DNA of 64,000 nt from an uncultured Candidatus Saccharibacteria bacterium (GCA_964487045.1 CAZAOT010000003.1:3730-67729); one strand, 5' to 3'; numbered from the stretch's first letter, positions 5,874 to 59,810 are shown. Numbers and translations: made by a program. The notes: generated by a model from the sequence alone, not told the origin.

Positions 5874-5902
5874 TTGATCTCTAGTTGCGATTCTGTTATA
5901 TT
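5874..5902 (+). promoter_or_regulatory. Sigma70-like promoter of GC-rich cassette A (TTGATC-N17-TATATT)
   Basis: -35 at 5874-5879 and -10 at 5897-5902 with a 17-nt spacer. Followed by SD GAGGAGG (5930-5936) and ATG at 5943. Confidence 0.5.
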
Positions 5903-5942
5903 CATACGATTGCAATCCAGAATACTCTCGAGGAGGGTTGTC

Positions 5943-6779
5943 ATGTACATTGGCAGACAGATGTATGATGAATCTGGTCTGAAGCTTTTGCCTGAGGTTG
6001 AGCTATGCTTTGGGCCGAGCGGGCAGTGGGCTGATCTAGCTAAGCTGCTTATTCTTTACAGCGAGCATGACCCCTATGACGCCTGGCGTCTCTGGTATCG
6101 GGCTATCGCTACCCAGCTTAGCTTTGAGCAGATGCTTGGGCTCGCTGGTCAGATGATAACGATCGCTACTCTTCGCCTCAGCAATGGCTTTGGCTCTTTC
6201 CCGGCTCCTCCTTCCCAAGATGCCCTAAGTTACTACCTGAGGGGTTCGAGGGTCTTGTCGGCTGCTGTCCGTCGGCTTGCTGCCTGGCAGTTCGACGGAG
6301 AAGGCAAGTACAGCTCTTTCTATGTGTTGCAGGATAAGATGCAGCTTGAGACCGCGCAGACTATCTATCGTCTGCCGTGGGATATGCCCTGCAACTGCCC
6401 GGAGGATCTCTCTGAAATTCTCGGGCAGTGTTGCGATGCTCTCGGGCGTTACGGTGTGGGTCCAGTCGGTAATCGTGAGTTCACGATCAATGTGCCTTTA
6501 CCATACGCTACCTGTACGACGCAGGTATCTTTCCAGTTTTACGCCACTGATGCCAACTGGATGCTTCATGGCGAGATTCCTTGCCCAGATATTGGTGTGC
6601 CAGAGATCTGGGTGAAGTCATCTGATCATGACGACGCACCTGAGTTGATCAGCTTCGGGGGTGGCAATCTCGCTGGCCTGGTGGCCCGCCTCGGTTTGCA
6701 TCCTACGATGACTCGGACGCAGATCAAGGACATTCTCTATACCCGCGTAGCTTACAGCTCGCATCCGCATAAGAGGTGA
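5943..6779 (+). CDS. Orphan protein A1 (278 aa) in a GC-rich island; no recognisable family
   Basis: Long ORF in markedly GC-rich DNA. SD-supported ATG at 5943 (the listed ORF begins at TTG 5874, which is the -35 box). Cys-rich patch CNCPEDLSEILGQCCD. Confidence 0.55.
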   Translation: MYIGRQMYDESGLKLLPEVELCFGPSGQWADLAKLLILYSEHDPYDAWRLWYRAIATQLSFEQMLGLAGQMITIATLRLSNGFGSFPAPPSQDALSYYLRGSRVLSAAVRRLAAWQFDGEGKYSSFYVLQDKMQLETAQTIYRLPWDMPCNCPEDLSEILGQCCDALGRYGVGPVGNREFTINVPLPYATCTTQVSFQFYATDANWMLHGEIPCPDIGVPEIWVKSSDHDDAPELISFGGGNLAGLVARLGLHPTMTRTQIKDILYTRVAYSSHPHKR

Positions 6780-6784
6780 GTGCG

Positions 6785-7345
6785 ATGCGCATACATAGAG
6801 AGCATTTTGCTCGTTTGGCGGCAGGCTCGGGTGCCGAGTGGCCGTTCGAGTGCAATGAGTGCGACTTGGAGCGTTTACTCTACGCGCTCTGGCATGACAA
6901 GATGCCGCTTGACCGCCAGCGGGTGCGTGAAATCCTGCCTCGTCTTCTGGTCGAGAATGTTCCTCTTGAGGGATTGATCCGACTTGGCTACGAGTCGCTG
7001 GCGCAATTTGCTCATGCGCTTTACATCTACTACTCGCAGGACATAGCGATCCTCGCCCAGCGGGAATTCGAAAGTAAGAATGGTCGAGTTGGCGCCCTCG
7101 GCGAGCGATTCGAGCAGATGAGCAATGTGGTGAAGCGCTTGCAGCATCTTGTGCTTGTGATGCCTAAGCTGATGGCTGAGACCCACGGTAGAGGTGGTGA
7201 AGGCGCGTTCATGATTACTCGCATGATTGCTTTGGCTCCACTTGATGGTCTTCAGGAGATGCTCGGCGAACATGCTGGGCATTGCTATGACTGGACCTAC
7301 TTCCAGACTCTCAGTCGGGTGATTGATGAGTCGAAGGCAAGTTAG
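6785..7345 (+). CDS. Orphan protein A2 (186 aa), co-transcribed with A1
   Basis: ATG at 6785 preceded by AAGAGG. Starts 5 nt after the A1 stop. Same high GC. Confidence 0.5.
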   Translation: MRIHREHFARLAAGSGAEWPFECNECDLERLLYALWHDKMPLDRQRVREILPRLLVENVPLEGLIRLGYESLAQFAHALYIYYSQDIAILAQREFESKNGRVGALGERFEQMSNVVKRLQHLVLVMPKLMAETHGRGGEGAFMITRMIALAPLDGLQEMLGEHAGHCYDWTYFQTLSRVIDESKAS

Positions 7346-7364
7346 TCTAGTTGGCTCTCTTCAT

Positions 7365-7400
7365 GGGGGCGGGATAATCCCGCCCCCATATTGTTTTTTC
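7365..7400 (+). terminator. Intrinsic terminator of cassette A
   Basis: GGGGGCGGG-ATAAT-CCCGCCCCC hairpin followed by ATATTGTTTTTT. Confidence 0.65.
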
Positions 7401-9478: not shown

Positions 9479-10204
9479 CTAGTTAGATCGCATTTCGGCT
9501 ACCACGGTGCAAATCTGCTCGGGCGAAGGAGCGTGAGGCAGCTTGATCCGACCGAGGCAAAGCTCAGCTGTCTCGTCGATCCTCCCGCCCAAAAGCGTGG
9601 TCGTCTCGAGGATAGCCCTTGCCCCCTTGGGCAGCCACTCGTCCTCGAGCTTCTCGATGAAGCTGACCGCACCATCCTCGTCGAAGATCCCTCCTGGCTC
9701 TAGCTCGCAAAGCATTCCGATGAAGAAGTCCCCAGGCATAAGCTTCCAGAGTTCCTCGCGGAGCTCTGTTACCGACAAGACGAGGTGACACTTCGCGAAC
9801 ACCTTGCCGAGAAGTACATCTCGAAGTCCTTCGCCGTACATGCCAGAGCCGCAGAAGCTAGCGATAAGCGCTGTGCCACTTGGCGCGCCATGTGCCAAAT
9901 GAGGCGCTAGGATGTCCCCAAAATGCATATACGTATCGTGAGAAACAGCCTTGCCGGCAAGCGCCCGTCTAGCATCTTCGAACGAATGAGAGGTGACGAT
10001 CCTGTGGTCGTAGCAGCTTCGTGGAATGATCGGGATCCAACCGCTTAGCTGAACAGGAGCCATCTTTGGGTCTGGTGGGATTGCCCAGATGTAGAGCCTT
10101 TTCCCGCACGAGCAGCCCTGCCCGCTGTAGAAGAAGTCGTCATCCATCTCGGCCTTGATCGCATCGCGCTGCTCGCTGCGAATCCGTGCTCGGCTATGTG
10201 GCAT
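9479..10204 (-). CDS. Orphan protein B (about 241 aa from the SD-supported ATG; the ORF extends to 10252) in a GC-rich island
   Basis: GC-rich ORF. GGGAGGG SD 11 nt upstream of the ATG at 10204. No family recognised. Confidence 0.45.
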   Translation of the reverse strand: MPHSRARIRSEQRDAIKAEMDDDFFYSGQGCSCGKRLYIWAIPPDPKMAPVQLSGWIPIIPRSCYDHRIVTSHSFEDARRALAGKAVSHDTYMHFGDILAPHLAHGAPSGTALIASFCGSGMYGEGLRDVLLGKVFAKCHLVLSVTELREELWKLMPGDFFIGMLCELEPGGIFDEDGAVSFIEKLEDEWLPKGARAILETTTLLGGRIDETAELCLGRIKLPHAPSPEQICTVVAEMRSN

Positions 10205-10275
10205 TTTTCCAGCCCTCCCTCTGTAATGTGCGATTTGCGAAAAGAGTAGCACATCTGTAAGATAAGATCTAGTCT

Positions 10276-10863: not shown

Positions 10864-10926
10864 CAGTCAGTTGCGAACACAAGATCAAATCCCATCTTTT
10901 TGAGATTTTTTCGTATGGGTCTAGTA

Positions 10927-10953
10927 TTGACTTTCTGCGAGATTTGGTATAAT
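10927..10953 (+). promoter_or_regulatory. Promoter of cassette C (TTGACT-N15-TGgTATAAT extended -10)
   Basis: -35 at 10927-10932 and -10 at 10948-10953 with TGG upstream. Confidence 0.55.
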
Positions 10954-11037
10954 ATAACCAGTTCCGAGGGAACCTTGAATGATCGCAGAACGCGGCTGGT
11001 ACCAGCCGTAATCGCTAACTCCCATGGGAGGGAGATC

Positions 11038-11415
11038 ATGCCGCCCAACAGTCGCAAGGCAAGCGCCCCGCGTTATAGGGGGTGCGTTGCTCAGCACAAG
11101 GCGTTCGATGATATCTGCGCTCAGATGACGCCTGCCGAGAGGCAGGAGTTTCTGATCGGCATCGGCGTATGCATCGGCTCATCTGTCGAAGCTAGTCGCA
11201 CACGCTCGATGGTTCGCAGAGCAACAAAGGGGCTAATCGCTGACGGGTTTCATGTCGAAGCTGCCAGCGTATTGGTCTCGAACGGGATGAAGAAGGACGC
11301 ACTCGCCGCGGTCAAGGTAGGTCTTGCCTGTCACCCGAGCAAGAACGCCCAGGACCTCGAGGTCCGCATCCGGCTTGTCGAGTTGGAGAGCGCAGCCGAA
11401 AGGCTACCGTCGTGA
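11038..11415 (+). CDS. Orphan protein C (125 aa) in a GC-rich island
   Basis: SD GGGAGGGAG then ATG at 11038. The listed ORF start at 10900 lies upstream of the promoter. No family recognised. Confidence 0.5.
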   Translation: MPPNSRKASAPRYRGCVAQHKAFDDICAQMTPAERQEFLIGIGVCIGSSVEASRTRSMVRRATKGLIADGFHVEAASVLVSNGMKKDALAAVKVGLACHPSKNAQDLEVRIRLVELESAAERLPS

Positions 11416-34142: not shown

Positions 34143-34475
34143 CTAGATGAGTCCGGCGCCACGGAGGGCGGCCTGGACTGCGGCATCTGCCGCAGCCTGG
34201 CGTCCAGCTCCGCGGCCGAACCTGGCCCAGTTATTGACGACCGTGTTGGTCGCCAGATCGAGCTGGGCCGGCGTGGGGGCGGGGACTCCTGCGGCCGTCA
34301 GGGCCGCGGTGATAACCGTGAGCTGCGCCGGCGACGCTACAGCCGGAGCCGCCGGGTTAGCGCCCGGAGCTGTCGGCATGGTAGCCGAGCCAGCCGGACG
34401 GTTGCCCGTCACGTACGTGGTCGCTCCCGAGGGAGCGATCGTGAGGGCACTGGCCGGTCCCTCCATCATGCCCAA
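34143..34475 (-). CDS. GC-rich segment J: Ala/Pro/Gly-rich 110-aa ORF (coding status uncertain, no SD) or ncRNA
   Basis: About 70% GC by eye. Minus-strand TTGACA at about 34531-34526 matches the cassette promoter family. 5' hairpins. ATG preceded by the palindrome GCCCAATTGGGC, no SD. Confidence 0.3.
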   Translation of the reverse strand: MGMMEGPASALTIAPSGATTYVTGNRPAGSATMPTAPGANPAAPAVASPAQLTVITAALTAAGVPAPTPAQLDLATNTVVNNWARFGRGAGRQAAADAAVQAALRGAGLI

Positions 34476-34556
34476 TTGGGCAATGGAGGTGCCGAAGGCC
34501 GGCCCGTCGTTAGGCCGGCGCCAAATGTCAAGATTCGGCGCAATAATAATGAATAA

Positions 34557-34637
34557 AGAAATCCGAAATCCGAAAAAATTCCTAAATAATCAATTTGATT
34601 TTTTGTATTTGTTATTTATTCTTCATTCTGGTTTGAT
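34557..34637 (+). repeat. AT-rich intergenic repeat, copy 1 (about 90% identical to 37481-37553)
   Basis: GAAATCCGAAATCCGAAAAAATTCCTAAATAATCAATTTGATTTTTTGTATTTGTTATTTATTCTTCATTCT. Confidence 0.7.
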
Positions 34638-34667
34638 GTTTTGTCTATTATTCTTTATTCTTAATTT

Positions 34668-35159
34668 ATGCAAATAGAATCATTCGATGGACAGAAAAAA
34701 GGGGAGAAAATCATCGCTGTTTGGCGGAGTCATATGTGGATTATGAGTCGAGCAGGATTCATCTTTGCTTTGTTTATAGTAATTGGCTCGATTCCGTTAG
34801 CTTTCACCTCCGCTTCCTGGGGAGCGGGTTTTTTACTGGTTTGCCTCGCTATCGGAGGAATTTACCTAGTAATGCAGATTTACCTATATGTCAGCAGCAT
34901 TTATATACTGACCAACGAGCGCGTTCTCTCAATTAACCAATCAAAACTTCTGATGAGGTCGATCAATGACGTTCCGCTTTCGAATATTCAAAATGTTTCC
35001 CATACCAGGAAGGGCTTATTTCAAATGCTTATGGATTATGGGGTCGTCGAGGTTCAGACAGCCGGATCGACTACGGCTATGACGCTCAAAAACGTGCCGC
35101 ATCCTTATCGAGTCCAGCAAAAAATTTTAACGCGAGAAGAGCGATTAAAATCAGAATAA
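34668..35159 (+). CDS. Bacterial PH-domain membrane protein (YdbS/DUF304-like)
   Basis: 163 aa. Two N-terminal TM helices then a bPH-like domain. Leaderless-like AT-rich start. Confidence 0.65.
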   Translation: MQIESFDGQKKGEKIIAVWRSHMWIMSRAGFIFALFIVIGSIPLAFTSASWGAGFLLVCLAIGGIYLVMQIYLYVSSIYILTNERVLSINQSKLLMRSINDVPLSNIQNVSHTRKGLFQMLMDYGVVEVQTAGSTTAMTLKNVPHPYRVQQKILTREERLKSE

Positions 35160-37480: not shown

Positions 37481-37553
37481 GAAATCCGAATAACGAAAAA
37501 ATTCCTAAATTATCAATTTGAGTTTTTTGTATTTGTTATTTATTCTTCATTCT
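37481..37553 (+). repeat. AT-rich intergenic repeat, copy 2
   Basis: GAAATCCGAATAACGAAAAAATTCCTAAATTATCAATTTGAGTTTTTTGTATTTGTTATTTATTCTTCATTCT. Confidence 0.7.
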
Positions 37554-37586
37554 TTTTTCTGGCTTGGTTATTATTCATGCCCAGTC

Positions 37587-37615
37587 TTGACATTTAGTGT
37601 CTTTTATGGTATATT
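37587..37615 (+). promoter_or_regulatory. Promoter of cassette D (TTGACA-N17-TGgTATATT)
   Basis: -35 at 37587-37592 and -10 at 37610-37615. SD AAAGGGGTG before ATG 37684. Confidence 0.6.
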
Positions 37616-37683
37616 ACTTCGATCGCTTGGAACTGGATTTTATCCAGCCGGCGACGCAACTACCCTAAAGGGGTGTTTCATTC

Positions 37684-38832
37684 ATGGCTAAGATGATCGG
37701 GATTGTTCGGTTGGGTGGGGAGCATCTCGTCGCTGAGGACTCAACGTTCCTCATCGGCGAGCTCAACAATGGTGACGAGGTATTCGTCGCCGGTAAGCCC
37801 CGTGGCACTGCCCGGCGCGTCGCTGAGACGCTCGGCAAGGACCAGGTCTTCCTGGTCTGCGAACTGGTCGAAAACGACCGCGGTGGCCAGAAGTATCGGG
37901 TCACCGAACCCGTGCAGGTGCTCGGGCTGGCCGAGAGCTTCGGCTCCCGCAACATGCTGCCCGCGGCTCTGCCCGGGCGCTTCGAGGGTTGGCTCGACAT
38001 GCTCCGCGACGGCAAGTTGCGGAAGGTGCGGGTCCCCGCCGATCTGGCTCTGGAAGGTCCCGCCCTCGCCCCCTCGCCGACCACCCCGCCGACCGCCCTG
38101 GGCGCCGCGCTCGGGAAGGCCGGCATGAAGGCCACCGAGGCGCCCGCCACCGAGGCGCCGCAGTCCACGCTGATCGACAGCGCGGGTGCGGCCAAGATCA
38201 TCGCGGAGGGCATCAAGGCCCTCCGGCCGGTCACGAGCGCTCTCGTCGTTACCGACCAGGAGCGCGACGCGCTCCAGGAGGCGATCGGCGCCCGCTTCCC
38301 GCGGGCGGCATTCGACTCCAGCCAGGCTGCGTCGGCCCAGGCCAACATGGAGCGCGTGCTCCAGGACGTACAGCAGCGCCGCCGCGAGGCGGCCGAGCAT
38401 TTCTTCGCCGAACTCGCGTCGTTCTGCGAGGGCAATATGGCCCTCCAGCTCGGCGTCCTCGGTGGGGATCTGCCGACGCTCAACGAGAAGGGGAACCCCA
38501 CCTGGGGCTCCACTCTCGACGAGCTCCTCGGTACCATGTCCACCGCCGAGGCTGCTGTTCTCGGCGCGACCGATCTGCCGGGCTACCCCGAGCCGGACTT
38601 GGCCCAAGGTCGTGGCGATGACCAGCCCGAACCCCCGCCGGATCCCGAGGGCGACAAGCCCGAAGACGAAGCCGAGGCCGCCACGGCCGAGGAGGGCGTC
38701 CACCCCATCGCCGCTGCCCAGGAGGGTGGCGTCAAGGCTGAGAAGGCCGCGCCCGCGACTACCAAGAAGCCGGCGGCGCGCAAGCCTCGCAAGACGGCAG
38801 CCGAGAAGGCCGCGACCGGCACCGACGGCTAG
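37684..38832 (+). CDS. Orphan protein D (382 aa), very GC-rich, with a C-terminal Ala/Pro/Lys/Glu-rich histone-H1-like tail
   Basis: About 65-70% GC by eye. All six frames are open around it, so only the promoter/SD-supported frame is called. Tail ...KAEKAAPATTKKPAARKPRKTAAEKAATG. Confidence 0.5.
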   Translation: MAKMIGIVRLGGEHLVAEDSTFLIGELNNGDEVFVAGKPRGTARRVAETLGKDQVFLVCELVENDRGGQKYRVTEPVQVLGLAESFGSRNMLPAALPGRFEGWLDMLRDGKLRKVRVPADLALEGPALAPSPTTPPTALGAALGKAGMKATEAPATEAPQSTLIDSAGAAKIIAEGIKALRPVTSALVVTDQERDALQEAIGARFPRAAFDSSQAASAQANMERVLQDVQQRRREAAEHFFAELASFCEGNMALQLGVLGGDLPTLNEKGNPTWGSTLDELLGTMSTAEAAVLGATDLPGYPEPDLAQGRGDDQPEPPPDPEGDKPEDEAEAATAEEGVHPIAAAQEGGVKAEKAAPATTKKPAARKPRKTAAEKAATGTDG

Positions 38833-38878
38833 ATCCTAGCCGGTTTCGTCCAGTAAGGAGGCTGGACACATGAACTCT

Positions 38879-38918
38879 AGAGGCGCGACGTCATTTGACG
38901 GAGCGCCTCTTTTCTTTG
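38879..38918 (+). terminator. Intrinsic terminator of cassette D
   Basis: GAGGCGCGACGTCATTTGACGGAGCGCCTC hairpin followed by TTTTCTTTG. Confidence 0.6.
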
Positions 38919-38941
38919 CCCTCTATTCGCTATTCTCTATT

Positions 38942-40213
38942 CTAGAACTTATATTCTTTGGGTCCGACAATTGTTAAAACAGCTTTTTTAGGATCAAAAA
39001 TTTCTTTAGCAATCTCCTGAACCTCTTCGGCTGTGACAGCGTCGTATTTAGAGAGCAATTCATCCGGATGCAAAATTTCCTTGTGCCAATATAATGATGA
39101 GCAAAGATAATCAGCAATTGAAAATGAGCTCTCGAGTGAACGAGTGATTGTCCCTCTTAGATTGCCCTTAGCTCGCTCTAGTTCCTCCTTGGTAATGCCC
39201 TTTTCTTTCAATTTTTCGGCCTCAGAGAGGGTGATGCGGTAAACTTCCTCCATCTGATCGGCTTTTACTCCGCCGTAGACATAATAGTTTCCAGTATCAA
39301 AATATGAGTTTATTCCTGATCCAACGTCATAAGCAAGCCCTCGCTTCTCTCTGATTTCATTGTAGAGACGACTTGATGGGCTGCCCCCGTAAATTATGTC
39401 CATGATGTTTAAGGCGAAGCGTCTTTTGTCTGCTTTCTTGAAAGAGGGGAAGCTGACGACGAAATTGGCTTGGTCGATTGATCTAACTTCTTGTTTTATG
39501 GCGCTTGCAAATGATCCTGCTTCAAATGGCGTAAAATCTTTAGGGGGTTTGGGCGGAATTTGCTCAAAATCTTTTTCTACCATTTCGATAATTGATTTGT
39601 CCTCAAGGTTGCCGCAAAGTGCGATAATCATCTGATCCGGGGCATAATGTGCTTGCCAATTTTGCATCAAGTCTTCTCTGGTTATCGAAGAAACGGTTTC
39701 TTGGGTTCCGCCTAAATCGTTGCCTAGCGGATGGTTGGGGTAAACGAGTTGTTGATTCAAGATACCTACCCAGGCTTGAGGCATATCTTTATACATTTTG
39801 ATTTCTTCCAAAATAATGCCCTTTTCCTTCTCCAGGAACTCTTCCTTAAAAGTCGGATTCTGGAAACAGTCTCTTAGGACATTGTAGCCGCGTTTGAAAT
39901 CCATCGAACAGGTCTGTAGATAAAAACGAATTGCTTCGTAGCTGGTTGAAGCGTTGTAGCCAGCCCCGATTGCATCAAATTCTTGAGTAACTTCAGCAAA
40001 GGTTTCATATTCTTTGGATCCGTTGAAAAACATATGTTCGAGAAAATGCGAGATACCGCTCTTGTCCATAGGGTCAAATCTAGCGCCGGTGCCGACTAAG
40101 ATTTGGATGGTTGTCGCTTCGGTCGAGTCCAGTGGCGCCGTAATTAAGCGGATGCCGTTTTTTAGGGTTTTGGTTTGAAAATTTATCATAAAGAAAGAAT
40201 AAAGAATAAACAA
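38942..40213 (-). CDS. M16-family zinc metallopeptidase (insulinase-like)
   Basis: 423 aa. HFLEHMFFNGS inverted zinc-binding motif (HxxEH). Confidence 0.85.
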   Translation of the reverse strand: MFILYSFFMINFQTKTLKNGIRLITAPLDSTEATTIQILVGTGARFDPMDKSGISHFLEHMFFNGSKEYETFAEVTQEFDAIGAGYNASTSYEAIRFYLQTCSMDFKRGYNVLRDCFQNPTFKEEFLEKEKGIILEEIKMYKDMPQAWVGILNQQLVYPNHPLGNDLGGTQETVSSITREDLMQNWQAHYAPDQMIIALCGNLEDKSIIEMVEKDFEQIPPKPPKDFTPFEAGSFASAIKQEVRSIDQANFVVSFPSFKKADKRRFALNIMDIIYGGSPSSRLYNEIREKRGLAYDVGSGINSYFDTGNYYVYGGVKADQMEEVYRITLSEAEKLKEKGITKEELERAKGNLRGTITRSLESSFSIADYLCSSLYWHKEILHPDELLSKYDAVTAEEVQEIAKEIFDPKKAVLTIVGPKEYKF

Positions 40214-40401
40214 GAAAGAATCAAGGAGAAAAGATGTAGAATTGTCAAATTAACAATTAAAAATGTCCAATCAATTATTAAATTCATAAATTAATAATTT
40301 GATTAATTTTCACATTAAGACATTTTTTAAAACATTCAACATTGTTAATTTGGAAATTCGTAAATATCTATTGTTAATTTATTAATTTTTGGCCCATATA
40401 C

Positions 40402-40430
40402 TTGACTTTTGGGGCGTTTTGTGGTATATT
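40402..40430 (+). promoter_or_regulatory. Promoter of cassette E (TTGACT-N17-TGgTATATT)
   Basis: -35 at 40402-40407 and -10 at 40425-40430. About 150-nt structured leader with hairpin CCCTCGC-TTGA-GCGAGGG. Confidence 0.6.
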
Positions 40431-40586
40431 ATCTTGTTCACGATTAGGAGGGGAAAGATCTCTTGGTCGAGAACGTTGACAATTCGAACCCCCTCGCTTG
40501 AGCGAGGGAGACATGCCGGACGAGGTCTCATCCTCCTCGTCATTGCAGCAGCGCTGCCGGTAACCATCACCTAGGAGGTGATTCGG

Positions 40587-41597
40587 ATGAGTAAGATCGA
40601 CCCGCGTTTCGATGGTATGGTTGTGGATTCTGTAGAGCAGGTCGGGACTGTCCCGGCTGAGCTCATCGCTGCGTTCCCGGAGCTCGGCGACGCAATGTAT
40701 TGCGTCGTTGAAATAGCCCGTGGGCAGCGCCGCAACAAGTATGTTGCGGCTGTCCGGCGCCAGTGCGCAAGCGCCGACTTCCGGGACGGCAGTGGTCCAG
40801 GCCACTGCCATTGGTTCTTTGATGCGGACTACAAGTCCGTCAAGGAGCTCGTTCGCGCGACGCGGTGGGCTATGCCCGCCGTGACCGACATGAGCACGCG
40901 CCAGCTCGGCGCACTGCTCGTTGCTGCGATCCGTCGTGGCAACTGCGAAATCGTAGTTGGCGATGTTGTTGTCGCTAGCTACGGAGGCTTCCTCGAGGAG
41001 GCCCTTCGCGAAATGGTTCGCCGCTCGCAAGCGGCGAACAGCCTCAAGGACGAAGCCAGCCGTTGGCTGGCGCAGCACTTTGAGGACGAGTCCATCGCCG
41101 TTGATGGCGGCTGGACTCACCCGGCCATTGACTGGCTGGCGTGGGTATTCGCCAGTCGTCAGCGCGAAAGCGCATTTGGCGATCTCGGTGGGGAGGCGAA
41201 CCGCTGGGTTCGGGAAACGCCCATCACGGGCGGACCTGAGCAGTGGGGCTGCCTGCGGGGTTTGCCCGCCGTACGCACCGAGGTCCGGGCATACGAAGAT
41301 CGCGGCGCGGAGCCGCAGATCTACCTCCCCAACGGGGAGAATTTCTCCGTCCGCCGCCTCATCGGCGGTGGGTACTTCCGCCTCGCGGAGGATGGGGTCT
41401 ACGACCTCTTCCTGCGCCGCGGGGCGGCGGAGATCGGTGACAAGGGCCTGATGTGGGCCCGCGTCACTGAGGACGGAAAGGTTGTCGCGGCGGTCGATCC
41501 GCTGCACAACTATGGGGGTTTGGGCGAGTTTGCCTATACCCCCCTGATGGGGCGCCTGCACAAGGCTCTCCAGGCGGCCGTTGCTGCCGAACAGTAG
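40587..41597 (+). CDS. Orphan protein E (336 aa) in a GC-rich island
   Basis: SD AGGAGG (40573-40578) then ATG at 40587. No family recognised. Antisense 395-aa ORF judged spurious. Confidence 0.5.
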   Translation: MSKIDPRFDGMVVDSVEQVGTVPAELIAAFPELGDAMYCVVEIARGQRRNKYVAAVRRQCASADFRDGSGPGHCHWFFDADYKSVKELVRATRWAMPAVTDMSTRQLGALLVAAIRRGNCEIVVGDVVVASYGGFLEEALREMVRRSQAANSLKDEASRWLAQHFEDESIAVDGGWTHPAIDWLAWVFASRQRESAFGDLGGEANRWVRETPITGGPEQWGCLRGLPAVRTEVRAYEDRGAEPQIYLPNGENFSVRRLIGGGYFRLAEDGVYDLFLRRGAAEIGDKGLMWARVTEDGKVVAAVDPLHNYGGLGEFAYTPLMGRLHKALQAAVAAEQ

Positions 41598-41603
41598 GAA
41601 GCA

Positions 41604-41660
41604 CAGGCCGGTACCGAGTTATCCGCAAGGATGACAAGGTGCCGGCCTTCTGCATTTTAT
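41604..41660 (+). terminator. Intrinsic terminator of cassette E
   Basis: AGGCCGGTACC...GGTGCCGGCCT hairpin followed by TCTGCATTTTAT. Confidence 0.55.
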
Positions 41661-41690
41661 AAACAAGAAACCTTTTTCGACCTTTCGAGC

Positions 41691-41719
41691 TTGACATTTG
41701 GCGGTATTTGTGCTATATT
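41691..41719 (+). promoter_or_regulatory. Promoter of candidate ncRNA E2 (TTGACA-N17-TGcTATATT)
   Basis: -35 at 41691-41696 and -10 at 41714-41719. Shares the 14-nt CTTGACATTTGGCG with the J promoter. Confidence 0.55.
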
Positions 41720-41725
41720 ACTCTC

Positions 41726-42082
41726 TTATGCTTCTTCAAGAAGAGTCAATCTTTTCTGAAGGGATATAAGTTCCCGATTCCAGTGGAGGGCCATCAGGAG
41801 AATGGCAGGTCGTCGGAAACGATAATCTAGCTGCTCCTCCAGTCTCGCGTTGAGACTGGAGATTAGGCCGACGCGGATGCGCGCCGGCTGTCACAGCCGA
41901 GGCTGAAGCAACCCATGAGGATTGACAAGTAATCCGACCCCGGTCGAAAGGCCATCAACAAGGTCGGATCGAGATCATGAACCATGGTTGATCATCAGCC
42001 GATTCGGCACAAAGGGAGACGCTTGCTTGACGCTTGCATCTCCCTTTTTCGTTAATCTAAAAAAGCCCTTTCGGGCTTTTCT
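41726..42082 (+). ncRNA. Candidate structured non-coding RNA (about 360 nt), promoter-to-terminator, GC-rich
   Basis: No ORF over 23 codons. Multiple perfect hairpins (CCAGTCTC..GAGACTGG, GGGAGACG..TCTCCC). Ends in terminator AAAAAAGCCCTTTCGGGCTTTTCT (42056-42082). No RNase P, tmRNA or SRP signature motifs found. Confidence 0.35.
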
Positions 42083-42151
42083 CACTACTTAGATCCTTCG
42101 ACTTTCTGAATTGCTAAATTATCAGAAGCGCTCAGGATGACCGTCCCACGG

Positions 42152-42712
42152 TCACTTAACTCGCTCTACGTATTCACCGGTTTGAGTGTTCACCTTCACT
42201 AGATCACCAGCTTTTATAAAAATCGGAGCGTTAATTCTCGCCTTTGTCTCTAATGTAACTAGTTTAGTAACGGCGCCTGCTGAATTGCCCTTGATGGCAG
42301 GAGGGGCTTCTGTAACTTCAAGATCAACCTTAAATGGCAGGCTGATATTGATCGGCTTATTATTCCACGAAAGCACATCAACCTCAACGCCTTCTTTGAG
42401 GAAATCTGCTTGAGTGCCAAGTTGCTCCTTGGAAAGCTCAAATTGCTCAAATGTAGCAGAGTCCATAAAATTAAATTTATCGCCTTCCCGATAGGTAAAA
42501 GAAGCTTTGGAGCGGGACATTTGAGCTTCATCAAACTTGTCGCTTCCCTTAAAAGTTAGGTCAAGAATCGCTCCCGTAAGAAGATTTTTTATCTTAGACC
42601 TAAGGATTGCGCCGCCTCGGCCAAGCTTTGAGTGTTCACGAAAAATTAATTGGTGAGGGGCACCATTATAAATCAAGAATGTTCCTACCTGTAAATCACT
42701 GATATTGAGCAT
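42152..42712 (-). CDS. efp: Elongation factor P
   Basis: 186 aa. KLGRGGAILRSKIKNL KOW region. Three-domain EF-P length. Confidence 0.9.
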   Translation of the reverse strand: MLNISDLQVGTFLIYNGAPHQLIFREHSKLGRGGAILRSKIKNLLTGAILDLTFKGSDKFDEAQMSRSKASFTYREGDKFNFMDSATFEQFELSKEQLGTQADFLKEGVEVDVLSWNNKPINISLPFKVDLEVTEAPPAIKGNSAGAVTKLVTLETKARINAPIFIKAGDLVKVNTQTGEYVERVK

Positions 42713-52970: not shown

Positions 52971-53624
52971 TTGCATGGAGGAGAGAGATTGAAGAGTGCC
53001 ATCTATATGCATCACTTCGCGCAGTCTGTTCTGCTGAAGCTTGGCGATCAGATCGCCGAGTTGCTTGATCGAGAGCTTCAAGCGTTGGTCGGATGTGCAT
53101 CAGATGTTCAGAGCCTGCGTGATCAACTTCAGGGTATGGTCAAGGTTAACCGTCACGAAGTAGAGCTGCCAGTTGTACCCGGGAATGAGAGCGTCTACCG
53201 ATGTGCGGGTTACAAGCTGGACGTACTTCCGGCACACGTGCAGTCGTGTCTTGACCTGCATGACGAATGCTCTGCCAGAGTAACCGAACGTATCTGTGAG
53301 TCGCTCCAGTCAATCCAGATCGGCTGTCCGCTGATCAACTACGCCCATGGCCAGCTGTACTTAGCTTGCGACACCGCCGGCTCCTGCGTGGAGTTGGCAA
53401 GGCTTGCTGTCGCACTCGACAGGAACTTCCCAGCGACGCACCAAACCCTGCCACTGCTAGCCGGGGATGAATGGCCTTGGCTGATGTGGGATAATGGCAA
53501 TCTGCACATGAACCATCCCTTCTCGGCCAGGGGACTATGGAAGCTTCAGGCGCTGGCCAAATCCATCAGGGAAGAGCTAAGGCCTGGGATGTATGGATAC
53601 GCCAGAGCCGGCGGCACACGCTGA
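52971..53624 (+). CDS. Orphan protein H1 (about 205-217 aa; start at TTG 52971 or ATG 53007), GC-rich, Cys/His-rich
   Basis: Long ORF in a GC-rich island. Terminator hairpin GGGGACA...TGTCCCC + ACCTTTTTTA at 53661-53700. Confidence 0.45.
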   Translation: MHGGERLKSAIYMHHFAQSVLLKLGDQIAELLDRELQALVGCASDVQSLRDQLQGMVKVNRHEVELPVVPGNESVYRCAGYKLDVLPAHVQSCLDLHDECSARVTERICESLQSIQIGCPLINYAHGQLYLACDTAGSCVELARLAVALDRNFPATHQTLPLLAGDEWPWLMWDNGNLHMNHPFSARGLWKLQALAKSIREELRPGMYGYARAGGTR

Positions 53625-53715
53625 TGAAGGCAGGTAGACTATCTGCTTACTCAAGGGGACATCCTCCAGACGGAGCTTGTCCCCACCTTTTTTATATTTA
53701 TTTCGGCCCAATACA

Positions 53716-53744
53716 CTTGAATTTTTATATACAAATTGCTATTA
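53716..53744 (+). promoter_or_regulatory. Promoter of H2 (TTGAAT-N17-TATTAT)
   Basis: -35 at 53716-53721 and -10 at 53739-53744. SD GGGAGG at 53830-53835. Confidence 0.45.
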
Positions 53745-53840
53745 TTTCTTCTTCTGTAATAGGTGGTCATTGACATTTGTATGGAGAAGAAACACCCGCA
53801 TCGACTTTGGTCGACGGGTTCAAGAAACGGGAGGTATACG

Positions 53841-54377
53841 ATGGTGGATCTTGCGGTTGTGAGTCTTGACCTGCGTAAGCAGGCCATGCTGAAGCTTCAA
53901 GATCTAGGTGAAAGCGAGATTCACTTAGGTCTTGTCAGAAGCTTTGTCGAAAGGCTTCATCATTCTGTCCCAATGACCTTGCTCGAGCGCGATCGGCTTG
54001 TTGACGCGCTTGGGGGGTTGCATGCAAGCCGTATAGACTTTCGCTCCTATGTGTCGCCGCGTCGGCTGGTCGCATTTCTTGATGTCAGTTTGCAGAATCT
54101 ATCCCAGGATGATCTGCCGGATTCGGTCAATGTGCATGGGATCGACTGGCTATGTGAGCAGGCAGAAAGCTGCGACCAGGCAGAATCAGAAGTGGACGTT
54201 CTCGATGCTGAGGCTTTTGCGATCGACCAGCCGAAGGTCGGTTCGGCAAGCGCCATGACTCACGCTGAAGCGCGGGTCAAAGTAGCTGAGTACCGAGAGG
54301 CTGCTGAGGCGCTTGAGCGGCAGATTCCGCTCGATCTTCAGGTGGGTCACATCGAGGACGGAGACGAAGACAAGTAG
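53841..54377 (+). CDS. Orphan acidic protein H2 (178 aa), GC-rich
   Basis: ATG at 53841 after GGGAGGTATACG. No family recognised. Confidence 0.45.
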   Translation: MVDLAVVSLDLRKQAMLKLQDLGESEIHLGLVRSFVERLHHSVPMTLLERDRLVDALGGLHASRIDFRSYVSPRRLVAFLDVSLQNLSQDDLPDSVNVHGIDWLCEQAESCDQAESEVDVLDAEAFAIDQPKVGSASAMTHAEARVKVAEYREAAEALERQIPLDLQVGHIEDGDEDK

Positions 54378-58110: not shown

Positions 58111-58329
58111 TTAACGATTTCCTCACCCTCCTAACGCCCTTTGTGTAGCTCTTTTTGTTGAACCTTCTGGAATTCATCCTCGAACAAGTTTGTCGAGGTA
58201 ATCAGTTCCAGCTTTCAACATCAAAGAGCATCTACTTTTAAAGTCTCGAAGCCCGCTTCTTCGACTTTTTATTAATTTTTTTGCTTCCAAGGGTTGATTT
58301 TTTTTAAAAATATGATAAAGTTTTTTTAC

Positions 58330-58640
58330 ATTATTGTTTCCGGTCCCTAGGGACCAACGAGCGTTCCCTCACCGAGGGAGCACCACAACCAGGCCTGAGG
58401 GGCGGCGGAATCCAGAGCCGTCGCCTCTCAGGGAAAAACTAGGCTTCGCGTCAACGCCCTCCTCCAGAGAATAGGCGCGAAGATGCACCACCGCGGGCTG
58501 CGTGCGCGATATGGCGCAGCCGGGCCAAGGCGGGCGACTGGCCTCCTTTGAAGGGGTCGATGGCTGGTCGCCCGTCTCCCAAACACACAAGGGCTGACTT
58601 TCTTGCGATCGTCAGCCCTATTTGATTCTCGTCCCGTTAG
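58330..58640 (+). ncRNA. Candidate structured ncRNA Ia (about 300 nt), GC-rich, plus strand
   Basis: A 15-bp stem with two G·U pairs (CCTGAGGGGCGGCGG / CCGTCGCCTCTCAGG). A 12-bp stem with two G·U pairs (GGGCGACTGGCC / GGCTGGTCGCCC). These are plus-strand-specific. 3' hairpin GGGCTGAC..GTCAGCCC followed by TATTTG. No convincing ORF. Confidence 0.3.
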
Positions 58641-58736
58641 AGATAAGTAATATTTTATCAACCGAATTATGCTTCAAAATTTTAAACTAATACAAGAACC
58701 ATTTTTATAAAAAATTTCTAACGGGGTAAACAGGTG

Positions 58737-58765
58737 TTGACTTCTGTAAATTTTCATATTAATAT
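58737..58765 (+). promoter_or_regulatory. Promoter of candidate ncRNA Ib (TTGACT-N17-TAATAT)
   Basis: -35 at 58737-58742 and -10 at 58760-58765. Confidence 0.5.
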
Positions 58766-58774
58766 TTATGTTAC

Positions 58775-59792
58775 GAGTGTAGGATGATCGCTAAGATCGT
58801 TCTACGCAGAACGTGGAAAGGGGTTTTGCTTATGATTCTCTGTGGTTCCATCGCCATCGTCTGACAACCGGCGCCTCTAACGATCTCACGATCGTAAGAG
58901 AAAGGGGATCTAGTGATCAGAGCGAGTCCGTAACCACGCCTTTCACATCGCCGGCTGAAATGCCGGCCCTGACCAAACCCAAGCTGTACCAATTAGTCGC
59001 AAAGTTGCTGATCGACGGACTTCTCTTGCGGCGAAAGCCGCCCCGACCGGCCAATGGGCCAGAAGACAAGAGGCTGAAGAAACATGCGTGCACGTTGTCG
59101 CGGCCACACCGTCGTATCCACCTTCTCCTTCGAGATCGCGCTGGTTCTCTAGGGAAACTCGCAAACCCGGGGATGCAGATCTCTGAAAGTCTCTGCACCA
59201 GCCATCTTGCTAGAACCCGCAAGGGCCGACTTCAAACGCTCCACCCTAACAAGGGACGGGAAAGCTGGCCAATCCGCGGCGGGGGACGCCGGCGCGCACT
59301 AGGCCGTAAGAGCTAGGGATGCGCGGCGGCTAAACGCCCGCCAAGCCCGAGTCGAAGGACCCGGAATGGAGCAAGTAGCCAAAGCAGTGACGGAGCGGAC
59401 ATAGTTCGCGCTCCCTATATCTGCTTGCGCTGGCATTGCCAAGGCACGCCGAGCCTGCGTGGCTCACAGAGTGCTTCATGGCGAGAAATGCATGCCCATT
59501 CCGGCTCTGCAATCCTACACATTAGGACGATGGGGTTGCGCCTGGAAAAGCATCAGGGTGTGATGCGAGCGAGGCTGATCGCTGGAATGGCCCTGGATAG
59601 AGGGTTTTGGCGAGGATGTCTTGCGGTGAGGCTGGTCCCTTCGGGGACTCCCCAGCCGGTGGCTGGGGAGCTAGTCTACTCATTTCGCCTTGGTGCGTTT
59701 GCCCAGGCGGGATTTTCCATAGGGCTCGAGTGTTTCACTCGGGCCCAAGTTGTTTTATAAAAGCAAAAAAGTGCCTCACGGGCACTCTTTTT
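58775..59792 (+). ncRNA. Candidate large structured ncRNA Ib (about 1 kb), GC-rich, promoter-to-terminator
   Basis: No ORF longer than 167 codons in about 65% GC DNA, and the longest is Arg-rich and GTG-initiated. cUUCGg tetraloop hairpin GGTCCCTTCGGGGACT. Hairpin CCCCAGCC-GGT-GGCTGGGG. Strong terminator AGTGCCTCACGGGCACT followed by CTTTTTT at 59766-59792. Confidence 0.35.
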
Positions 59793-59810
59793 TAATTAAT
59801 AAAATTATTA

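What the first reader, a model, noticed from the sequence alone, without database searches (positions are those of the whole stretch)
40402..41660. Cassette E: 336-aa orphan with a long structured leader
The promoter (TTGACT-N17-TGgTATATT) is followed by about 150 nt of GC-rich leader. The leader holds a 7-bp/4-nt-loop hairpin (CCCTCGC-TTGA-GCGAGGG) and a second stem before the AGGAGG SD. This suggests riboswitch- or thermometer-like control. The protein has no recognisable motifs, and the terminator is a 10-bp GC stem.
Basis: partly seen in the sequence, partly recalled or inferred. Interest (0 to 1): 0.55.

Follow-up and report, generated by a model that had tools for sequence, protein, structure and literature searches.

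The report
Conserved structured leader on foreign gene
A GC-rich, self-contained gene in a tiny-celled (Patescibacteria) bacterium starts with a folded RNA leader whose shape is kept in a distant relative, so the leader probably controls how much of an unknown protein is made.

Summary
The described features are all present at the stated coordinates. They are a near-consensus extended -10 promoter, a roughly 150-nt GC-rich leader with the 7-bp hairpin, an AGGAGG ribosome-binding site, a 336-aa ORF and a large GC hairpin terminator.

The protein is not a strict orphan. An exhaustive search found 19 distant relatives (31-42% identity), and every one whose genomic context I fetched lies in low-GC Patescibacteria-like DNA. 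The family has no Pfam, NCBIfam, PHROG or PADLOC match. A confident model (pLDDT 83) has no solved or viral structural relative.

The last 107 nt of the leader form five helices: P1, a three-way junction of P2, P3 and P4, and a hairpin P5 over the ribosome-binding site. The same architecture precedes a 36%-identical homologue in another organism, with 13 of 31 base pairs changed on both sides. No Rfam family matches.

I conclude this is a new cis-acting leader that most likely gates translation. The trigger is unknown. Predicted melting argues against a thermometer.

The gene family is richer in GC than its surroundings by 0.10-0.21 in 9 of 10 loci. This is unexplained.

The parts
40240..40387 (.). 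AT-rich region upstream of the promoter (GC about 0.20). It holds four copies of the 16-nt motif AATTNNNAAATTANNA, at 40240 and 40281 on the + strand and 40343 and 40372 on the - strand. These may be operator sites or remnants of a repeat element.
   Evidence: 7 matches in the whole 64-kb window against 0.17 expected, all next to cassettes D, E and F; inverted repeats I5 and I8. The two copies upstream of D are missing in strain L002.
40402..40430 (+). Sigma-70-type promoter: -35 TTGACT, 17-nt spacer, extended -10 TGgTATATT. The transcription start is inferred near 40437.
   Evidence: (repeat family D2) show a 33-nt stretch that is 76-79% alike at the promoters of cassettes D (37586) and F (41690). 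The consensus match is not evidence of function.
40437..40473 (+). 5'-terminal hairpin P0 of the leader. It contains a second AGGAGG at 40446-40451. It is not conserved in the homologous leader.
   Evidence: Minimum-free-energy fold. L096 has no equivalent.
40463..40501 (+). Possible 12-codon upstream ORF, from TTG 40463 to TGA 40499-40501, ending in the loop of P1. Unverified. The spacing from the AGGAGG is long (11 nt).
   Evidence: Read directly from the sequence. No conserved counterpart was seen in L096.
40486..40592 (+). Conserved five-helix leader motif.
- P1: 40491-97 with 40502-08.
- Linker AGACA.
- P2: 40514-18 with 40558-62.
- P3: 40519-25 with 40535-41, with the conserved loop UCUCAUCCU.
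- P4: 40545-49 with 40553-57.
- P5: 40566-72 with 40576-82.
   Evidence: Independent folds of the window and L096 leaders give the same topology. Model R1 hits L096 at 29.2 bits. 13 of 31 pairs are compensatory. There are no background hits in 1.39 Mb and no Rfam match.
40573..40582 (+). Shine-Dalgarno sequence AGGAGGTGAT. Seven of its 10 nt form the 3' arm of P5 and the other three (AGG) form its loop. The tract CCUCCU at 40532-40537, in the P3 loop and arm, is also complementary to it.
   Evidence: Duplex energies: -17.8 kcal/mol with the canonical 16S tail and -12.3 with the P3 loop and arm.
40587..41597 (+). CDS of 336 aa. It is a member of an uncharacterised family found in Patescibacteria, with conserved blocks FPEL, DLSTxQI, ELIRRS, VTGxPEQW, RRGSRExGDxGWMW and DPLxNY.
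   Evidence: 19 relatives; alignment A1; AlphaFold2 pLDDT 83, pTM 0.79; no fold relative. An in-frame TAG at 40572 rules out an N-terminal extension.
41605..41658 (+). Compound terminator hairpin: an 11-bp outer stem, a 7-bp inner stem, then UUCUGCAUUUU.
   Evidence: -39 kcal/mol, z = -8.3. GC falls back to 0.36 after it.

Best explanation
Cassette E is a single-gene transcription unit with foreign base composition, sitting between the M16 peptidase gene and efp in a low-GC Patescibacteria (CPR) chromosome.

A strong sigma-70-type promoter is predicted to drive an mRNA whose first ~150 nt are a leader. The last ~100 nt of that leader fold into a conserved five-helix RNA: P1, a three-way junction of P2, P3 and P4, and a hairpin P5 over the Shine-Dalgarno sequence.

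Two tracts that resemble the 3' end of 16S rRNA can pair with the very strong Shine-Dalgarno sequence AGGAGGUGAU. One is AUCACCU, the 5' arm of P5. The other is CCUCCU, in the P3 loop and arm. I infer that the folded leader limits 30S binding. I also infer that an unknown trigger acting on the junction shifts the balance and sets how much protein is made. The trigger would be a small ligand or a protein, possibly the gene's own product.

The protein belongs to a small, uncharacterised family seen only in Patescibacteria-like contexts. It has a confidently predicted fold with no known relative.

**Shown:** the promoter match, the helices, their conservation and covariation, the protein family, and the GC contrast.

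**Inferred:** the transcription start, control at the level of translation, that the element switches at all, the nature of the trigger, and horizontal origin.
For: **Structure beyond chance.**
- The leader holds three perfect hairpins of at least 7 bp, matched by 0 of 2000 shuffles.
- Fold z = -2.6.

**Conservation.**
- The window leader and the L096 leader fold independently into the same topology.
- Their proteins are only 36% identical.
- BLASTN sees only the 24 nt around the Shine-Dalgarno sequence, at E = 0.12.
- Model R1, built from the window alone, matches L096 over its full length at 29.2 bits, E = 3.9e-5.
- R1 gives no hit in 1.39 Mb of unrelated Patescibacteria loci. Model R2, built from both leaders, scores at most 12.5 bits there.

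**Covariation.** 13 of 31 pairs are changed on both sides and 95% of cells are paired. With the 3' partner slid by 1-3 columns, 0-1 pairs remain.

**Conserved unpaired tracts.** The P3 loop UCAUCCU, the linker AGACA followed by GCCGGA, and TCACCnAGGAGGTGAnnnGGATG are shared by both leaders.

**Other family members.** Their leaders are also long. In each of five independent folds, an upstream CUCC pairs with the Shine-Dalgarno GGAG across a hairpin whose stem covaries.

**Not coding.** There is an in-frame stop at 40572.

**Not an attenuator.** No U-tract follows P2, P4 or P5.

**Foreign or recent origin.**
- GC is 0.64 against 0.45 for the rest of the window.
- The family has no conserved neighbours.
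- The tract 38874-42616 is identical between two strains whose flanks differ by about 3.5%.
Against: - Only two independent examples of this leader type exist. The six L096-like contigs are one sequence.
- Alignment A6 was fitted to the model structure, which inflates the pair counts.
- Model E-values are rough. A GC-rich coding region gave a spurious 19.5-bit hit on both strands.
- In the nearest-neighbour model, the AGGAGG core is only half buried (unpaired fraction 0.51). That is no more occluded than the ribosome-binding sites of host genes (mean 0.46).
- Full occlusion therefore depends on a loop-loop or alternative pairing that I could not test. Both partner sequences are invariant, so there is no covariation to count.
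- Model R2 does not link this motif to the leaders of other family members.
- There is no expression data, no ligand and no known protein function.
Confidence: 0.6

Rival explanations
1. Constitutive structural leader. The helices are kept because they protect the mRNA from 5' decay or damp translation from an over-strong ribosome-binding site. No trigger switches them.
For: - A stable 5' hairpin P0 and GC-rich helices are present.
- The predicted structure barely changes between 10 and 75 C.
- Occlusion of the Shine-Dalgarno sequence is only partial.
- No clearly bistable fold appears. Blocking the 5' arm of P5 costs 5.7 kcal/mol without producing a defined alternative structure.
- The whole transcript, including the ORF and terminator, is GC-rich.
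Against: - Simple stabilisers do not usually keep specific loop and linker sequences plus a three-way junction across 64% protein divergence.
- P0, the element best placed to stabilise the 5' end, is the part that is not conserved.
Confidence: 0.2
2. RNA thermometer. The hairpin over the ribosome-binding site melts as temperature rises and frees the site.
For: The Shine-Dalgarno sequence lies in a hairpin directly before the start codon.
Against: - P5 has 7 perfect Watson-Crick pairs (-7.4 kcal/mol), with none of the weak pairs or bulges typical of ROSE or fourU elements.
- The predicted unpaired fraction is 0.32 at 10 C and 0.37 at 55 C.
- Rfam's thermometer families gave no match down to E = 10.
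- A thermometer does not need a conserved three-way junction.
Confidence: 0.03
3. No function. The leader is simply foreign GC-rich DNA that came in with the gene, and it folds because GC-rich sequence folds.
For: The leader is GC-rich like the ORF. GC-rich sequence raises model scores, as the false hits in L101 show. The fold z-score is only -2.6.
Against: - 0 of 2000 composition-matched shuffles contain three hairpins of at least 7 bp.
- Neutral sequence would be randomised at 36% protein identity. Yet five helices persist, with 13 compensatory pairs.
- The window's other GC-rich islands give no model hit.
Confidence: 0.05
4. Transcription attenuator or separately acting small RNA. The leader ends transcription early, or is released to act on other targets.
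For: The leader is long with several strong hairpins. In some family members (L086, L088, L089) an upstream hairpin contains a short stem followed by UCUUUUUG.
Against: - In the window, no hairpin of the leader is followed by a U-run.
- The conserved motif runs straight into the Shine-Dalgarno sequence and the start codon, in register in both examples.
Confidence: 0.05

Closest known systems
Translational riboswitches that hide the Shine-Dalgarno sequence behind a junction or pseudoknot (for example preQ1-II/III or SAM-II; named from my own knowledge, not tested here)
   Same: A structured element of about 100 nt in the 5' UTR, with conserved unpaired nucleotides and covarying helices. It ends in a helix that contains the ribosome-binding site, and there is no terminator.
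   Different: No match to any Rfam family. No ligand is known. The downstream gene gives no metabolic hint. Only two independent examples exist.
Autogenous mRNA operators, in which a protein binds the leader of its own mRNA (for example the leaders of ribosomal proteins L20 and S15; named from my own knowledge)
   Same: A structured leader that travels with one particular gene family, overlaps the ribosome-binding site, and differs in detail between subfamilies (type 1 and type 2 leaders).
   Different: Nothing shows that the 336-aa protein binds RNA. It has no known RNA-binding domain.
RNA thermometers (ROSE, fourU)
   Same: The Shine-Dalgarno sequence sits inside a hairpin just upstream of the start codon.
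   Different: The stem is perfect and stable, with no predicted melting up to 75 C. There is an extra conserved three-way junction. No Rfam match.
Candidate structured RNAs found in long GC-rich intergenic regions of AT-rich genomes (GC-IGR and DIMPL surveys: PMC6429828, PMC8723152, PMC11109978; seen as titles and abstracts)
   Same: A GC-rich structured element standing out in a low-GC genome. It would be picked up by that kind of survey.
   Different: Here the whole transcription unit, ORF included, is GC-rich. I found no report of this motif or of this protein family.

Membership tests
Any Rfam 15 family (riboswitches, thermometers, leaders) | Covariance-model score at or above the family's gathering threshold | tested here: not met
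   Gathering scan of the window: only two tRNAs. Permissive scans of 37500-42200, 40400-40620 and the L096 leader gave only chance hits to eukaryotic snoRNA and miRNA families, far below threshold.
Riboswitch (general kind) | Conserved, covarying aptamer-like structure in a 5' UTR | tested here: met
   Five helices, 13 of 31 compensatory pairs, and conserved loop and linker sequences between two distant homologues. Only two sequences are available.
Riboswitch (general kind) | Direct, selective binding of a small molecule that changes expression | not testable with these tools
   Needs in-line probing, ITC or reporter assays. The gene's function gives no clue to a ligand.
RNA thermometer (ROSE / fourU type) | A hairpin over the Shine-Dalgarno sequence with weak or non-canonical pairs that opens within the physiological temperature range | tested here: not met
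   P5 has 7 Watson-Crick pairs at -7.4 kcal/mol. The predicted unpaired fraction is 0.32-0.37 from 10 to 55 C. This is a prediction only.
Sigma-70 extended -10 promoter | TTGACA-like -35, 17-nt spacer, TGnTATAAT-like -10 | tested here: met
   10 of 12 consensus positions plus the TG. Promoter activity was not tested.
Intrinsic (Rho-independent) terminator | GC-rich hairpin followed directly by a U-tract | tested here: inconclusive
   The hairpin is very strong (-39 kcal/mol, z = -8.3). The tail UUCUGCAUUUU is interrupted, and the consensus scanner did not list the site.
Curated protein families (Pfam-A, NCBIfam, PHROGs, PADLOC) | Profile match at the curated or a significant threshold | tested here: not met
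   No hits. The only PADLOC entry was DUF499 at E = 0.03 over 43 residues, which I treat as noise. A PDB sequence profile search found nothing.
Known protein folds (PDB, BFVD) | Significant structural match covering a domain or more | tested here: not met
   Each unit has its own consensus promoter and terminator. The units are separated by housekeeping genes. No integrase appeared among the called genes of this region. No formal attC model was run.
Phage or plasmid gene | Relatives on viral or plasmid records | tested here: not met
   No match in 50,697 phage records at the DNA level, in 72,556 plasmid records by tblastn, or in IMG/VR by family patterns and by the leader pattern.

The most novel reading that the evidence does not exclude
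The leader is the first example of a new riboswitch or RNA-operator class specific to Patescibacteria. Cassette E would then be one of a wider class of GC-rich, self-contained expression units, each with its own promoter, long structured leader, gene of unknown function and terminator. On this reading their GC excess is an intrinsic, maintained property of the transcript, or the mark of an unsampled mobile gene pool moving between these bacteria, and not a passing trace of one transfer.
Probability: 0.2. Interest if true: 0.75.

Novelty: new variant of a known kind. Interest (0 to 1): 0.55.

Why it matters
Patescibacteria make up a large share of bacterial diversity, yet almost nothing is known about how they regulate genes, and much of their gene content has no assigned function.

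This locus offers a concrete and testable regulatory RNA. It has five covarying helices, defined conserved loops and a clear output (the ribosome-binding site). It is attached to a protein family with a confident but unmatched fold.

The family is richer in GC than its host genome in 9 of 10 loci, and this window alone holds about ten similar GC-rich units with no Pfam match. That points to an unrecognised pool of accessory genes in these reduced genomes. If the trigger of the leader were found, it would also give a first clue to what the protein does.

Tried and rejected
- **Single-sequence AlphaFold2.** pLDDT was 37, so the model was unusable. It was replaced by a run using alignment A1.
- **Word-indexed homologue search.** It found only the query itself, and only one further member when given the family profile. 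The exhaustive phmmer search was needed to see the family.
- **Locus search with the full 18-sequence alignment.** It failed for lack of a conserved stretch. A six-sequence alignment gave four metagenome loci and no viral loci.
- **Genome-collection scan with the neighbouring M16 peptidase.** The best match was 39% identity to a Berkelbacteria genome, so no close relative was available for presence/absence comparison.
- **AlphaFold database fold search.** The library was unavailable.
- **Extra R1 hits in L101 (10.7-10.9 kb).** Rejected. They lie inside a GC-rich coding region and occur on both strands.
- **Linking the two leader types.** Model R2, built from both type 1 leaders, does not detect the leaders of other family members. 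Any homology between the two leader types remains a visual impression.
- **More type 1 sequences.** Cluster mates of P0005 differ by a single indel, so they add nothing.
- **Accessibility of the ribosome-binding site against host genes.** The comparison did not separate cassette E from host genes. I therefore do not claim that occlusion is demonstrated.
- **Links between neighbouring units.** BLAST and tblastx between family loci and the window found only the family gene in common. Cassettes D and F are therefore not conserved partners of E.
- **N-terminal extension of the ORF through the leader.** Rejected, because of the in-frame TAG at 40572.
- **Literature.** No report of the motif, the family or the source samples was found.

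Full report
**Setting**

The window is a low-GC (about 0.43-0.45) bacterial chromosome segment. It carries dnaA, dnaN and recF, a large secretion- or pilus-like cluster, and rpsF, ssb, rpsR and efp. The M16 peptidase next to the finding has its best genomic relatives, at only 31-39% identity, in Berkelbacteria, Parcubacteria and other Patescibacteria MAGs. The host is therefore a deep-branching member of the Candidate Phyla Radiation with no close sequenced relative in the species-representative set.

The same locus occurs on independent assemblies from three sequencing runs (L001-L003). It is therefore natural DNA, not a construct or an assembly artefact.

**Check of the observation**

- The promoter is TTGACT-N17-TGgTATATT at 40402-40430.
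- The 156 nt from there to the start codon have GC 0.55. The intergenic DNA immediately upstream has 0.20, the ORF 0.64, and the spacer after the terminator 0.36.
- The hairpin CCCTCGC-TTGA-GCGAGGG is at 40491-40508.
- The 'second stem' is in fact three further helices.
- Three perfect hairpins of at least 7 bp in 156 nt were never reached in 2000 dinucleotide-preserving shuffles, whose mean was 0.10.
- The overall fold has z = -2.6.
- AGGAGG at 40573-40578 is part of AGGAGGTGAT, a 10-nt match to the canonical 16S 3' tail. The predicted duplex energy is -17.8 kcal/mol.
- It lies 8 nt before ATG 40587.
- The terminator is a compound hairpin with 11 outer and 7 inner pairs, at -39 kcal/mol and z = -8.3. 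Its U-tract is interrupted.

**The ORF is a real gene but not an orphan**

GC by codon position (0.71/0.47/0.74) is typical of a coding sequence.

The word-indexed search found only the protein itself. An exhaustive phmmer search of 1.84 billion cluster representatives found 19 relatives, at 31-42% identity and E-values down to 5.5e-31.

The alignment has 14 invariant columns and clear blocks: FPEL, DLSTxQI, ELIRRS, VTGxPEQW, RRGSRExGDxGWMW, DPLxNY and YTPLxxRI.

With this alignment AlphaFold2 gives pLDDT 83 and pTM 0.79. The model has no meaningful structural relative:

- Foldseek against the PDB does no better than E = 0.43.
- Foldseek against viral models does no better than E = 0.059.

Pfam, NCBIfam, PHROGs, PADLOC and a PDB sequence profile all give nothing. 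No relative is found on phage, plasmid or IMG/VR records.

The one named relative is a hypothetical protein of 'Parcubacteria group bacterium Gr01-1014_18'. Every fetched homologue locus with enough flanking DNA is low-GC, and where flanking genes were called they are bacterial housekeeping genes. Neighbouring genes are not conserved between loci. A divergently transcribed TrmB-family regulator lies upstream in three independent loci. The window has none.

**The leader**

The decisive result comes from L096, a contig from a different organism. Its family member (P0005) is 36% identical to the window protein.

- BLASTN between the two leaders detects only the 24 nt around the ribosome-binding site, at E = 0.12.
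- Each leader nevertheless folds on its own into the same architecture:
  - a hairpin P1;
  - a short purine-rich linker (AGACA);
  - a three-way junction in which P2 encloses hairpins P3 and P4;
  - a final hairpin P5 that contains the Shine-Dalgarno sequence.
- A covariance model built from the window sequence alone (R1) matches L096 from model position 1 to 107, at 29.2 bits and E = 3.9e-5. The match ends exactly at that gene's start codon.
- The same model finds nothing at E <= 10 in 1.39 Mb of unrelated Patescibacteria loci.
- It also finds nothing in the window's other GC-rich islands.

On the resulting alignment, 95% of cells are standard pairs and 13 of 31 pairs are changed on both sides. 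By helix these are 3 in P1, 2 in P2, 4 in P3, 3 in P4 and 1 in P5. When the 3' partners are slid by 1-3 columns, 0-1 such pairs remain.

Unpaired sequences are conserved: the P3 loop UCAUCCU, GCCGGA at the start of the junction, and TCACCnAGGAGGTGAnnnGGATG.

No Rfam family matches either leader.

There are caveats:

- There are only two independent sequences. The six L096-like contigs are identical apart from one indel.
- The alignment was fitted to the model.
- Calibration of the model is rough.
- GC-rich coding DNA can reach 19.5 bits.

**How the leader probably works**

P5 pairs AUCACCU with AGGUGAU. This places seven of the ten Shine-Dalgarno nucleotides in a stem and the other three in a 3-nt loop.

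A second tract resembling the anti-Shine-Dalgarno sequence, CCUCCU at 40532-40537 in the loop and 3' arm of P3, is fully complementary to AGGAGG. Predicted duplex energies are -12.3 kcal/mol in the window and -10.8 in L096.

No hairpin of the leader is followed by a U-run, so control of transcription termination is unlikely.

I therefore infer control of translation initiation. The conserved junction would be the part that senses something, either a small molecule or a protein, which could be the gene's own product.

This is an inference. In the nearest-neighbour model the AGGAGG core is only about half paired (0.51), which is no more occluded than the sites of host genes (mean 0.46). The proposed contact between the P3 loop and the ribosome-binding site cannot be checked by covariation, because both sides are invariant.

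The thermometer reading is disfavoured. P5 is a perfect 7-bp stem (-7.4 kcal/mol), and the predicted accessibility of the site is flat from 10 to 75 C.

Other family members have leaders of about 100-560 nt. Six of them share a different-looking motif: ACUCCCCAA..UGCC[hairpin ending GGAGAG]CC..AAAAAGGAG. In five of these, folded independently, CUCC pairs with the Shine-Dalgarno GGAG across a hairpin whose inner pairs covary. The sixth, L107, was recognised by eye only.

Structured leaders that engage the ribosome-binding site are therefore a family trait. Model R2 does not formally connect the two leader types.

**Origin and context**

The gene has GC 0.64 against 0.45 for the rest of the window.

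Across the family, the gene exceeds its flanks by 0.10-0.21 in 9 of 10 independent loci with at least 1.7 kb of flank. GC3 is 0.48-0.77 in those nine. Only the Parcubacteria copy (L084) matches its genome.

No member was found in a GC-rich context. The usual explanation, recent transfer from a GC-rich donor, therefore lacks a donor. Selection on the transcript is an open alternative.

Two strains whose flanking genes differ by about 3.5% are identical from 38874 to 42616. That tract covers the M16 peptidase gene, cassette E, the adjacent non-coding unit and most of efp. This fits a recent recombination or sweep of the segment.

The window holds about ten further GC-rich units with no Pfam match. 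Several of them have consensus promoters.

**Verdict**

This is a conserved, covarying, previously undescribed cis-acting leader, attached to a member of a small uncharacterised protein family found only in Patescibacteria-like DNA. The protein is not an orphan.

Whether the leader is a riboswitch, a protein operator or a constitutive element is open. A thermometer is unlikely.

I rate it a new variant of a known kind, a leader that engages the Shine-Dalgarno sequence. Interest is moderate, and is raised by the unexplained GC excess across the family.

Noticed in passing
window 41691-42090: Cassette F. A consensus promoter (TTGACA-N17-TGcTATATT) is followed by a 327-nt GC-rich stretch with no convincing ORF. 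Its fold energy is -130 kcal/mol, z = -5.2. Two terminator-like hairpins follow, near 42010-42050 and 42056-42080. No Rfam match and no counterpart in the family loci. This is a candidate new structured non-coding RNA.
   Followed up: partly
window 37587-38915: Cassette D. It has a promoter very like that of E, a ~70-nt leader with a hairpin over its ribosome-binding site, and a 382-aa ORF with GC 0.70 and GC3 0.85. The ORF ends in an Ala/Pro/Lys-rich tail, and a terminator follows. There are no Pfam, PHROG, PADLOC or NCBIfam hits and no phage match. Only a 378-aa strain variant shares its 90%-identity cluster. No exhaustive homologue search was run for it.
   Followed up: partly
window 37467, 37500, 40240, 40281, 40343(-), 40372(-), 42109: The 16-nt AT-rich motif AATTNNNAAATTANNA occurs 7 times in 64 kb against 0.17 expected. 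All copies are in the three intergenic regions flanking cassettes D, E and F. The two copies upstream of D lie in a ~120-nt segment that is absent from strain L002. The motif could be an operator or a small repeat element.
   Followed up: partly
window 38874-42616 against L002: A 3.7-kb tract has no differences between two strains whose flanks are 3.4-3.8% diverged. It covers the M16 peptidase gene, cassette E, cassette F and most of efp. Cassette D just to the left carries 7 SNPs, a 12-bp indel and 6 changes in the promoter spacer. This suggests a recent recombination or sweep.
   Followed up: partly
family loci L087, L090, L093, L094, L096, L097, L100, L107 and the window: The gene family is richer in GC than its flanks by 0.10-0.21 in 9 of 10 independent loci, and GC3 is raised as well. 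Only L084 is level with its genome. No member was seen in a GC-rich context. Unexplained.
   Followed up: partly
window 5874-7390: Cassette A. A promoter and two overlapping GC-richer ORFs (5943-6779 and 6785-7345), both without Pfam hits, are followed by a strong terminator (GGGGGCGGGATAATCCCGCCCCC). The unit is inserted exactly between the DnaA-box cluster beside dnaA and rpmH.
   Followed up: no
window 9479-10252, 10900-11415, 34147-34677, 47500-48250, 51344-51694, 52971-54377, 58300-59800: Further GC-rich islands (GC 0.52-0.64) between housekeeping genes. Their ORFs have no Pfam hits. Some show no coding-like codon-position bias (34147-34677, 47695-48168, 58428-59760) and may be non-coding RNAs. 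Consensus promoters lie at 10927 and 58737.
   Followed up: no
L087 2108-2785, L101 3787-4605 and 8810-9631, L107 4494-5261: A TrmB-family (PF01978) regulator is transcribed divergently just upstream of the family gene in three independent organisms. In L101, a second TrmB gene sits the same way next to a second GC-rich unit. That unit has a leader of about 650 nt and a hairpin over its ribosome-binding site, ACACC-CGAGGA-GGTGT.
   Followed up: partly
L086, L088, L089, L090, L097, L107 (upstream of the family gene): A second leader motif is shared by other family members: ACUCCCCAA-N-UGCC[hairpin ending in GGAGAG]CC-AAAAAGGAG. In five independent folds, CUCC pairs with the Shine-Dalgarno GGAG, and the inner stem covaries. 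L107 was recognised by eye only. L086, L088 and L089 also share a long upstream hairpin, with 15-17-nt complementary arms.
   Followed up: partly
window 34668-35159 and L084 7211-7843: The 210-aa gene next to the family member in the Parcubacteria locus L084 is a distant homologue of a window ORF (24% identity, E = 6e-13 by tblastx). That window ORF lies directly after the GC-rich island at 34147-34677. The significance is unknown.
   Followed up: no
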